This document shows, piece by piece, positions 16,471-18,541 of a stretch of 64,000 nt of DNA. The notes under the pieces were generated by a model, which saw only the letters and a program-made list of their open reading frames with translations, searched no databases and was not told the origin of the DNA. The stretch covers positions 32,674,001-32,738,000 of the forward strand of contig CM060734.1 in NCBI GenBank assembly GCA_030704615.1. Reading direction: 5' to 3'. The DNA is from Takakia lepidozioides (taxonomy: Eukaryota > Plantae > Bryophyta). The position numbers were made by a program, and so were the translations under genes. Numbering within the stretch: the stretch's first letter is position 1; every line of letters starts with the position of its first letter.

Positions 16471-16989
16471 ACACTCTAAAAATTCCATAGATTTTTAGTA
16501 GAGTCCCAAAAACACCATGTCTAGATAGTAGTAGATTTCCCCTTTCTGCAGCTATCCCTCAAAAACTGAGTCAAACGGAGCTCATTTGACAAAGATATGA
16601 CCAACCAGGCTCTTTAAACATTTAAATTAGATCAAAAGGTTTTTTTTTTTTTTTTTTTTTTTAACACCAAAACGCTTTTGCCATTACAACCTGTTCCCAG
16701 GTTATCTACGAGTTCCCGAGGTCGTTCATGTAGTTCTCACATGTTCCCTTACCAATGTCCACAGAGCTTGAGCTGCCAAAACAAAACGGGATCTTTGCAC
16801 CACGGCCAAGGAAAGGGGCCGCAGCAAGCCGCGTGCATGCCATTGCTGTCGCCATCTCTTTCCCGCTTCCTCACCTAGCCCAAGCTTGCAAACTCTGAGT
16901 GGGCTCTATTGCGAGTTTCTCCTCGCCGAGCAGATGCCAGCACAGCGACGACAGATCGAACGGACGGCCAATCTTCGAACCTAAATTCA

Positions 16990-17272
16990 GCTGTGGAGGT
17001 GGTGAAGGAGTTTATTGACAAGGGCAACTCTGCTCGCAGCACTGGCTCCAACGATACCAATGAAGAGTCATCCAGATCTCATGCTATCCTTCAGCTTGTT
17101 ACCAAGAGAGCCGAAGGCAGTGACTCAAGAGGAAACCGTGTCGTTGGCAAATTTCTTTTATTGACCTTGCTGGCAGTGAGTGTGGGCTGACACTACTGAT
17201 GCTGCTCGCCAAACCAGGATAGAAGGAGCAGAGATCAACAAGAGCCTGCTGGCTCTGAAAGAGTGCATAGAG
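16990..17272 (+). pseudogene. Captured kinesin-13 motor-domain fragment (no intron visible)
   Basis: RSTG..TNEESSRSHAILQL is followed, after a frameshift, by [12 protein letters not shown]...[18 protein letters not shown], a kinesin-13 signature. Confidence 0.88.
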
Positions 17273-17393
17273 TGGTGATTTGGTGTCCGCCAGACTTATG
17301 CTTCCTGGCCCCAGCCGAATAGAGAGAACGCTGCCCCAACAATTGTAGATTCCGCTTCGCTTATTTGAAGACGATGCTTGGCAAAATCTTATC

Positions 17394-17910
17394 TCAGTAA
17401 GTGATATTAAGAAACTTGGCCATGGCTTCCACGGCACCTGGTGGCCACCAGCTCTACACCAATCCACCTGATATTGCTGTACTGCGGTTCCCGAGCAGTG
17501 GTCTCAGAGAACCGTTCCTCTGCCCGGCTGCGGTCACCTTCTCTCCACAGCACTGCCGCTAGAGCTGCATGAGCCTCAGTGTAATTTGGATACTTCCGGA
17601 CAAGGCCTTGTATCAGTTTCTTGGCCTCCCCCAATCTGTCGAGCTGAAAGAGAACCAGAGCTTACTTGAGTCGGTATCTGAAATCCTGGGCCGCCTCCTC
17701 AAACTTCAGAAGGGAGACCCTCACACTCCCCCGGTTGGACCAGACACTGGCATTTGCGGAATCCTCATCTATCAAAGCTGAAAACAATTCTTCAGCAGTT
17801 TCCAGGTTTCCAGCAACCGCCGCCCTGAGAGCATCCTGCAGCTTGGGATTTTCAACGTCTTTGAGCTTTACTCTCGTTGAAACTGCTGCTTTTGCAGGAA
17901 GGATCAACAT
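17394..17910 (-). pseudogene. Captured TPR-protein gene fragment with C-terminus and stop (no intron visible, internally deleted)
   Basis: ASVWSNRGSVRVSLLKFEEAAQDF and LVRKYPNYTEAHAALAAVLWREG...AMAKFLNITY* are TPR helices. Confidence 0.72.
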
Positions 17911-18541
17911 TGCCCAACCTTAGTGCTCCAAGTGCCACAGAAAGGCTGAAAACAGCTGGCGTCAGGCAGTTACTGACGAGTGCCCTGCGATACCGGCATT
18001 ACCATCTTCCTTTCGTTGTAGTCGTCTCTCTGCCTAGCCGCTCCTCAGCTACAGACCGCAGGCTTCGTTGAAACTTGAGCTGGGTAATACCCTGATTTCT
18101 TGGGCTCTCCATAAGCGGTACCCTTGCTCACAGGCCCTTCAATCCAAAAACGGGCTGGCTTGGAGTCACCCACGGCAAGCCCTTCATTTCCACTCCACAC
18201 GGCAGCCCTGAGACGATGACAGGATCGCTGCAGAAAATCTAGGCACGAAAAAGAGCTAACCTCTAACCCGTCGTTACTTGATGAATCAATCAGGCAGCAT
18301 TCATCTCCAGTAGCCTGAGCAAGATCTCTCTACTAAACGCGTGACTCCAGCAAGATCCGCTAGCAGTAACTGCAAGAAGTATCCACCGCAAGCTTAATAG
18401 CTTTCTGCCGCTCCGGAATGGTTAAACACTCAGTTGAATCATTCACAGACCTGTGTCACACCAAGGTATATTATAATAGTGCTAAAACAAACATTATATC
18501 TAGCTTAGCACTAGAAAACTAGATGGCTGATCTCTCTCGAG

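What the first reader, a model, noticed from the sequence alone, without database searches (positions are those of the whole stretch)
16720..18527. Variable cargo slot in element B copy 1: chimeric intronless host fragments (kinesin-13 antisense, TPR gene sense)
Seen: between the primer site and the shared internal region (which starts at GGGAACTCGTAG, ~16717 and ~44337), the two otherwise near-identical copies carry unrelated ~1.7-1.8 kb sequences. Copy 1 has a kinesin-13 motor piece and a TPR gene 3' part with no visible introns, in opposite orientations. Inference: host mRNAs are captured by template switching at a fixed position. In a DNMT-encoding element, such cargo could direct siRNA or methylation to the parent genes.
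Basis: partly seen in the sequence, partly recalled or inferred. Interest (0 to 1): 0.7.

Follow-up and report, generated by a model that had tools for sequence, protein, structure and literature searches.

The report
Retrotransposon leader packed with host mRNAs
In a probably fern genome, a jumping gene that encodes a predicted DNA methyltransferase carries in its front end a patchwork of pieces from at least five host transcripts, two of them missing introns that the host DNA has, likely picked up when its copying enzyme jumped between RNA templates; the process is known, but the patchwork is unusually dense and differs between sister copies.

Summary
The carrier is a Ty3/gypsy element with a Dnmt3-like domain, A…B-A-B repeats and 4-bp target duplications, i.e. 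the KnitGypsy-Dnmt3 design. RNA contigs from two studies tile about 1.7 kb of copy 1's 5' leader (16755-18452) as five separate host transcripts: an unidentified one, RPL15, a TPR gene, kinesin-13 (antisense) and an mRNA 5' end. DNA contigs show an intron acceptor and an intron donor at two sites that the cargo reads straight across. A further 237-nt loss inside TPR coding sequence has GT-AG ends, so it was probably spliced out. Copy 2 carries a different cargo that includes PSRP5. Best explanation: reverse-transcriptase template switching onto co-packaged RNAs, tolerated in a non-coding gap, with 5' modules recombined onto young element bodies. Corrections: the variable block starts about 70 nt after a self-priming site, and a targeted 'fixed position' is not shown. 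A DNMT-cargo link is unsupported: 20 of 21 related elements run collinear through this region. Mechanism (Bs1, LTR retrocopies) and carrier are both known; the scan noted similar captures in animal genomes, not at this locus.

The parts
18898..18901 (-). 4-bp target-site duplication CATC, 5' side of copy 1 (partner at 7039-7042)
18542..18897 (-). Repeat A1 of copy 1 (TGT...TCA); inner self-primer at 18743-18731
18530..18542 (-). Primer site: 13-nt perfect complement of the self-primer inside A (predicted self-priming)
   Evidence: covaries in relatives
18455..18529 (-). Element leader, shared with many copies and weakly homologous to copy 2; not cargo
   Evidence: 3 of 2000 shuffles; depth and loose ends at 18467
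18146..18452 (.). Cargo piece e: 307 nt of an unidentified host transcript (2405- and 3182-nt RNA contigs); orientation not established
   Evidence: records 22 and 31; not identified
18039..18136 (-). Cargo piece: ribosomal protein L15 (eL15) coding fragment, sense; overlaps the TPR piece by 7 nt (18039-18045)
17316..18045 (-). Cargo piece: TPR gene mRNA, sense, most of the coding region to about 80 nt past the stop; reads across an intron site at 17468/17467; 237 nt (79 codons) missing at 17678 with GT-AG ends
17270..17315 (.). 46-nt unassigned filler between TPR and kinesin pieces
   Evidence: no other match in the window
16987..17269 (+). Cargo piece: kinesin-13 motor coding fragment, antisense to the element; reads across an intron site at 17217/17218
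16951..16986 (.). 36-nt unassigned filler
16755..16950 (-). Cargo piece a: 5' end of a host mRNA (leader, ATG and transit-peptide-like start; that label is my reading). RNA contigs cover to 16860 and 16922, a low-depth DNA contig to 16950
   Evidence: records 10, 17, 24
7043..16717 (-). Constant body of copy 1: leader with A23 tract (16662-16640), gag, protease, Dnmt3-like DNMT, RT, RNase H, DDE integrase, PHD region, PPT, B1-A2-B2
42305..54060 (+). Element copy 2, TSD ACTG, A1 = A2 at 352 of 352
42740..44320 (+). Variable block of copy 2, unrelated to copy 1's; holds a PSRP5/cL37 coding piece in sense (matched stretch about 43837-43935); the rest is unidentified

Best explanation
The block is a mosaic of pieces from at least five host transcripts in the non-coding 5' leader of a Dnmt3-type gypsy retrotransposon, likely built by the element's reverse transcriptase switching onto co-packaged RNAs in several rounds. 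Shown: the pieces, their parents' RNA contigs, intron loss at two sites, a GT-AG-bounded loss, several DNA copies of this cargo, and different sequence at the same place in other copies. Inferred: this stretch is the last part copied during minus-strand synthesis and lies between two needed parts (primer site with leader, and the constant leader before gag), so insertions survive there without being targeted; the cargo was later spliced at a cryptic GT-AG pair (or came from such an isoform); the antisense kinesin piece came from an antisense or second-hand RNA (another element's copy, dsRNA) or from a plus-strand switch; and recombination between co-packaged element RNAs put old 5' modules, cargo included, onto young bodies. 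The cargo is most likely a neutral passenger; any effect on parent genes would run through host siRNA pathways, not through the element's DNMT.
For: RNA contigs of two studies each match one piece and run on unlike it: 16755-16922, 16987-17269, 17316-18045, 18039-18136, 18146-18452 (X6 shows all five; X7 shows all five, its TPR piece in three parts). Kinesin: a DNA contig joins at 17216 through a pyrimidine-rich ...TTTGTAG acceptor, and contigs with the RNA-type letters end at 17218 in both runs laid. TPR: a DNA contig leaves at 17466 through ATCAG|GTAGAG; the same exon end appears in an unnamed relative's read-through ORF P0009. The loss at 17678 is 79 codons by three orthologues and 236-237 nt by the RNA contig; both flanks continue as coding sequence and the lost piece begins GTAAGG and ends TTGCAG. 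7-nt overlap at RPL15/TPR. DNA contigs of 786 and 884 nt bridge several junctions. Whole elements have 4-bp TSDs; none seen at 12 edge pairs tried for the cargo. Copies differ by 6 substitutions in about 3000 pol columns but 27 of 192 in the 3' half of A, while cargo pieces differ from their RNA contigs by roughly 1-5% substitutions. The mechanism is published: PMC5131818, PMC13317346.
Against: Only one junction shows clear microhomology; three have 9-46 nt fillers of unknown origin, and the parent side of several junctions was not displayed (59 loose ends hidden, 4). Each splice-site loose end rests on one contig of one run (X3), and X1-X3 are one sample. Intron loss was not tested for RPL15, piece a or piece e; a low-depth DNA contig matches piece a 28 nt beyond the longest RNA contig, which fits an incomplete RNA contig but also DNA-level capture. 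A simple minus-strand switch onto mRNA gives sense cargo, so the antisense kinesin piece needs an extra step. In the Drosophila cases the cargo replaced element ORFs; here it does not. RNA status of X6 and X7 is the tool's guess.
Confidence: 0.75

Rival explanations
1. Read-through transduction: an element upstream of a gene makes a read-through RNA that is spliced from the element leader onto host exons, then recombines with a full element RNA.
For: The cargo sits just behind the primer site and leader, where this route would put it. Both copies' cargo-like sequence begins after a CAG|GT, and copy 2's leader holds an AT-rich GT...AG stretch. Cryptic splicing of the cargo is likely.
Against: Junctions between pieces fall inside coding exons (RPL15/TPR, kinesin ends). 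An antisense read-through would not lose the kinesin intron. Five genes would need five separate insertions beside genes.
Confidence: 0.1
2. DNA-level patching: breaks in integrated copies were repaired from cDNAs or existing retrocopies of host mRNAs, in either orientation.
For: Explains intron loss, mixed orientation and short fillers together. Other intron-less kinesin-type DNA contigs with different ends exist (loose ends at 16968 and 17247). Maize Sireviruses show no orientation bias of captured fragments.
Against: Gives no reason for confinement to one gap of one element family in both copies, and needs free cDNA of five genes. The GT-AG loss and the recombined 5' module show that this region passes through the element's RNA cycle anyway.
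Confidence: 0.09
3. One reading: the slot is a selected guide cassette that sends siRNA or the element's DNMT to the parent genes.
For: The DNMT is Dnmt3-like with catalytic motifs in one frame in copy 1. Sense and antisense pieces lie in one predicted transcript. Captured fragments raise siRNA and methylation on donor genes in maize.
Against: 20 of 21 related DNMT elements with a 5' end run collinear through this region. Donors identified are unrelated housekeeping or plastid genes. All five parents are present as RNA contigs. I know of no RNA-guided targeting by Dnmt3 catalytic domains (recalled), and PMC5890265 proposes self-methylation of element cDNA (abstract).
Confidence: 0.04
4. Secondary insertion of a gene-fragment-carrying DNA transposon (Pack-MULE or Helitron type), or a misassembly.
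For: Such elements often carry several fragments. The window has many small indels against run contigs, so the assembly is error-prone.
Against: No TSD or terminal inverted repeat at 12 edge pairs tried; introns are lost; DNA contigs bridge the junctions at several-fold single-copy depth; copy 2 has a different cargo at the same place.
Confidence: 0.02

Closest known systems
LTR-mediated retrocopies (Tan et al. 2016, PMC5131818; passages read)
   Same: Partial, intron-less mRNA pieces inside an LTR element; more than one parent gene; short overlaps or de novo fillers at switch points; later re-amplification; one gypsy family (BLASTOPIA) with a recurrent switch-back site.
   Different: In the Drosophila cases the cargo replaces element ORFs; here gag-pol remains and the cargo sits in the 5' leader. 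At least five parents in 1.7 kb, one antisense, with a cryptic GT-AG loss.
Maize Bs1 (seen only through PMC13317346 and PMC5131818 passages; the primary paper was not held)
   Same: Plant LTR element with fused fragments of several host genes, copied on afterwards.
   Different: Bs1 has three donors forming one expressed ORF and all copies share switch points; here sister copies carry unrelated mosaics and no long ORF spans the block.
KnitGypsy-Dnmt3 of Klebsormidium nitens (de Mendoza et al. 2018, PMC5890265; section 9 and passages read)
   Same: Gypsy domain set with a Dnmt3-related DNMT in the polyprotein and DIRS-type repeat layout.
   Different: Here in a land plant, with close protein relatives in liverworts and Sphagnum. 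Host cargo, self-priming and a PHD finger are not mentioned in the parts I read (PHD: 0 occurrences in the main text; figures and supplements not seen).
Maize Sireviruses with captured gene fragments (Muyle et al., 10.1101/777037; passages read)
   Same: Full-length LTR elements with captured exon pieces in either orientation; siRNA cross-talk with donor genes.
   Different: Only 3% of Sireviruses carry fragments and 15% of those carry two or more; here 2 of 2 copies in the window carry cargo, one with five or more pieces.

Membership tests
LTR-mediated retrocopy | Host sequence flanked on both sides by sequence of one LTR element | tested here: met
LTR-mediated retrocopy | Introns of the parent absent | tested here: met
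   Two sites in two of the five pieces (supported by P0009); three pieces untested
LTR-mediated retrocopy | Microsimilarity at switch points | tested here: inconclusive
   7 nt at RPL15/TPR, 2 nt at leader/piece e; fillers of 9, 36 and 46 nt elsewhere
LTR-mediated retrocopy | Cargo replaces part of the element's ORFs (all Drosophila cases in Tan et al.; typical rather than defining) | tested here: not met
   gag, PR, DNMT, RT, RH and IN remain downstream in both copies
LTR-mediated retrocopy | Further amplification with the element | tested here: met
   Cargo contigs at depth 254-481 vs 33-35 for low-depth contigs in X2, and 61-87 vs 11 in X3; a rough 6-14 copies, and the tool warns that depth is no copy number
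Gypsy-DNMT3 (KnitGypsy-Dnmt3 type) | Gypsy order gag-PR-RT-RH-DDE integrase | tested here: met
Gypsy-DNMT3 (KnitGypsy-Dnmt3 type) | Dnmt3-related C5 methyltransferase in the polyprotein region | tested here: met
   PF00145; the best 29 of 48 PDB hits are DNMT3A/B/C; FGG, PCQ and ENV motifs
Gypsy-DNMT3 (KnitGypsy-Dnmt3 type) | DIRS-type A-coding-B-A-B repeats | tested here: met
   also in relatives L038, L058/L060, L079
Gypsy-DNMT3 (KnitGypsy-Dnmt3 type) | One clade with the K. nitens element | not tested
   No K. nitens sequence was identified among my hits and no tree was built
Self-priming LTR elements (Tf1/Tcn1 type) | At least 10 nt right after the 5' LTR complementary to a stretch inside it (criterion of PMC6317226, passage read) | tested here: met
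   13 nt in both copies; 15 of 23 relatives show a perfect 8-17 nt match with different letters, 7 none, 1 not located
Self-priming LTR elements (Tf1/Tcn1 type) | Transcript starts at the self-primer | not testable with these tools
   Only contigs were available
Pack-MULE / Helitron secondary insertion | Own TIR/TSD, or retained introns from DNA capture | tested here: not met

The most novel reading that the evidence does not exclude
This lineage is a 'Pack-LTR': coding-complete Dnmt3-gypsy elements keep a family-wide hypervariable leader that samples the host transcriptome, so that hundreds of copies carry many different mRNA mosaics; the element's own Dnmt3 methylates the cDNA, cargo included, before integration, seeding siRNA or methylation on the donor genes or camouflaging the element.
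Probability: 0.1. Interest if true: 0.8.

Novelty: new variant of a known kind. Interest (0 to 1): 0.47.

Why it matters
It is an unusually complete natural record of LTR-mediated capture: several donors in one leader, direct intron loss, a probable later cryptic splice, and different mosaics on near-identical bodies. If the family-wide catalogue is as varied as two copies and the loose ends suggest, one genome would give many dated captures for testing switch-site rules, orientation bias and whether captured fragments silence donors or shelter elements. It also extends the Dnmt3-gypsy design, named in one paper of the library searched, to land plants and adds covariation evidence for self-priming. 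The capture mechanism itself is not new.

Tried and rejected
No whole genome was held, so parent genes and family copies could not be read directly. An exact 27-letter pattern from the slot's 3' edge found 0 matches in metagenome contigs; the DNMT alignment found 0 relatives among 102 candidate stretches in viral contigs. No RNA contig joined two cargo pieces, which contigs cannot turn into absence. RNA depths were not used to rank donors. Piece e: no Pfam hit; the single phmmer hit in one frame, P0081, is a repeat-sum artefact; other frames were not searched there. Copy 2's other pieces: no hit; the Atlas lead Tim17 at 0.87 with recognition 2072 is weak and was rejected. Methylation signature: 12 of 24 cargo-wide differences are C>T/G>A (3 CG, 3 CHG, 6 CHH), close to background proportions, so inconclusive; 34 of the 40 rows shown were used, 6 dropped (4 outside the cargo, 2 without an RNA variant), 22 more were hidden. 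Homology just 5' of 16717 between the copies is not significant (171 of 2000 shuffles). The two other-allele loose ends have no match in the window. No Rfam hit in 14500-19000. Leaders of L058 and L079 gave no Pfam hit in six frames. PMC3726574 passages gave nothing on position or orientation. Earlier findings by place and by sequence: none.

Full report
Carrier. Self-BLAST gives two inverted copies, 7043-16717 against 54060-44337 at 95.6%. Both encode protease, a C5 methyltransferase, RT, RNase H and DDE integrase; a PHD finger scores in copy 2 and a weak gag match in copy 1 (gag region of both by tblastn). The ends are not two plain LTRs: a 352-356 bp repeat A opens the element and the 3' end reads PPT-B-A-B, with ends TGT...ACA and 4-bp duplications CATC (copy 1) and ACTG (copy 2). 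The DNMT's best solved relatives are DNMT3A/B/C. This matches the description of KnitGypsy-Dnmt3: gypsy domains with DIRS-type repeats (PMC5890265, section 9 read). Close protein relatives come from Calypogeia, Marchantia and Sphagnum (60 hits among the 7992 candidates scored), and a 2026 preprint refers to 'streptophyte Gypsy-DNMT3' (10.64898/2026.05.21.726589, passages). The host is probably a fern: the best named TPR matches are Adiantum and Ceratopteris. No genome was held.

What the block contains. Four runs were laid on 16666-18640. Contigs of two RNA-type runs from two studies each match one stretch and run on unlike it. In element order: 18452-18146 (unidentified transcript), 18136-18039 (RPL15), 18045-17316 (TPR gene), 17269-16987 (kinesin-13, opposite strand) and 16922-16755 (5' end of an mRNA with a transit-peptide-like start, my reading). 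Fillers of 9, 46 and 36 nt lie between some pieces. DNA contigs of 786 and 884 nt bridge several junctions, so the chimera exists as DNA, although these runs may be the window's own sample. Cargo contigs lie at several times the depth of the lowest-depth contigs, roughly 6-14 copies, with the tool's warning that depth is no copy number. Copy 2's block is unrelated and holds PSRP5 in sense (E 9e-8); its other pieces were not identified and no reads were laid on it.

Intron loss. Two DNA runs of one sample were laid on 16960-17800 (12 of 16 loose ends shown). One X3 contig joins the kinesin piece at 17216 after 174 unlike letters ending ...CCACCTTTGT, which with the next AG is a canonical acceptor at 17217/17218; contigs that carry the RNA-type letters stop at 17218 in both runs, as a donor there would require. 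One X3 contig leaves the TPR piece at 17466, reading ATCAG|GTAGAG, a donor at 17468/17467; an unnamed relative's read-through ORF (P0009) loses similarity at the same codon and also just before LDRL. The cargo reads across these sites. It was not run for the other three.

A third RNA-level mark. The TPR piece lacks 79 codons at 17678 (three orthologues; RNA contig positions 851-1086). DNA loose ends on both sides continue as coding sequence (KAIELAPEA; ALGIAG), so this is not exon skipping. The missing piece starts GTAAGG and ends TTGCAG, with only one shared base at the join. A cryptic GT-AG splice is the simplest cause; whether it happened in the host mRNA or in the element's RNA is open.

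Junctions and position. RPL15 and TPR overlap by 7 nt; the other junctions show 0-2 nt or fillers, so microhomology is suggestive only. No TSD or inverted repeat was seen at 12 edge pairs. The first ~70 nt after the primer site are element leader (3 of 2000 shuffles). DNA depth rises more than tenfold at both edges, other sequences leave the flanks at 16727, 16749 and 18467, and no contig joins the two flanks directly, so several alleles share roughly the same boundaries and no empty allele was seen. The copies differ by 6 substitutions in about 3000 pol columns and 1 of 154 in the 5' half of A, but by 27 of 192 in the 3' half of A and 2-6% in the first kilobase after the block. The segment from the predicted transcript start through the cargo therefore belongs to older, separate lineages recombined onto a young body (inference). 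Many window indels are absent from run contigs, so some frameshifts are likely assembly errors.

Primer site. The 13 nt after A are the perfect complement of a stretch at A position 155 in both copies; 15 of 23 relatives show a perfect 8-17 nt match at the same places with different letters, 7 show none and 1 was not located. This meets the self-priming criterion of PMC6317226 (passage).

Is the slot a family trait? A DNMT alignment fetched the best 80 of 110 confirmed loci from metagenomes. Of 26 with gag and at least 1.5 kb upstream, 21 have repeat A of one family; 20 of the 21 (including the reference and two duplicate pairs) align in one piece from A through the primer site for about 900 bp more; L035 has about 60 extra bases there; 3 are truncated at the primer site; 2 (one duplicate pair) belong to another family with a 2.6-kb leader and no Pfam hit. 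The slot is thus not a general property of DNMT-gypsy elements, which weakens any link between DNMT and cargo. The sample is essentially two families from unnamed hosts.

Mechanism. Shown: mosaic, parents, intron loss at two sites, GT-AG-bounded loss, multiple copies, different alleles. Inferred: template switching onto co-packaged RNA near the end of minus-strand synthesis, survival in a gap between needed cis-elements, and module swapping. The antisense kinesin piece needs an extra step (antisense or second-hand RNA, or a plus-strand switch). Rivals are read-through transduction, cDNA-templated repair, a selected silencing cassette and a secondary insertion, in that order.

Comparison with the literature. 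Multi-gene, intron-less capture by LTR elements with microsimilarity, fillers and a recurrent switch site is in PMC5131818 (passages); Bs1 has three donors (second-hand; primary paper not held); Sireviruses carry fragments in both orientations with siRNA cross-talk (10.1101/777037, passages). I found no paper on cargo in Dnmt3-gypsy elements: 'KnitGypsy' occurs in 1 paper; others (20 of 40 listed) showed none by title or abstract start. The library lacks most subscription journals, and I read no supplements, which may describe leaders or repeats of these elements.

Verdict. Real, and a new variant of a known kind. The density of donors, the leader position in coding-complete elements and the cryptic splice make it a good test system; the silencing function is speculation.

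Noticed in passing
window 7043-7575 and 53521-54060; L038, L058, L079: The inner B1-A2 join reads ACA-GC-TGT, like an end-to-end junction, and the integrated ends carry 4-bp TSDs. The A...B-A-B layout is what a two-LTR circle opened by integrase inside one LTR would give (inference).
   Followed up: partly
window 18743-18530 and 42459-42668; L007, L057, L058, L071 and others: Self-primer and primer site covary across three Dnmt3-gypsy families, which supports tRNA-free priming in this group.
   Followed up: yes
L001-L080; proteins P0021-P0080: Dnmt3-gypsy elements are common outside Klebsormidium; several Marchantia and Calypogeia annotated genes are close matches to the element's DNMT region.
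   Followed up: partly
window 16640-16717: The constant part begins with a short stop-ended stretch and an A23 tract 55 nt on (A16 in copy 2); it may be the 3' end of an older captured mRNA.
   Followed up: no
window 42692-42788: Copy 2's leader holds an AT-rich GT...TGCAG stretch that ends where cargo-like sequence begins.
   Followed up: no
window 9-3123, 19853-38220: Dense arrays of broken PPR-repeat sequence with a period near 303 bp (5 of 6 ORFs tested hit PPR families).
   Followed up: partly
window 3124-7042 and 18902-19870; 28510-30547: Copy 1 sits inside another Ty3/gypsy element; an inverted 96% copy of its 720-bp repeat and a chromodomain integrase end lie at 28.5-30.5 kb.
   Followed up: no
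window 40302-42300 and 54061-55273: Copy 2 interrupts a long ORF whose distal part has a SWIM zinc finger, possibly a Mutator-like transposase.
   Followed up: no
window 16968, 17004, 17247 (loose ends): Other DNA contigs carry parts of the kinesin piece joined to different sequence, one to a T tract, hinting at further cargo variants or retrocopies.
   Followed up: no
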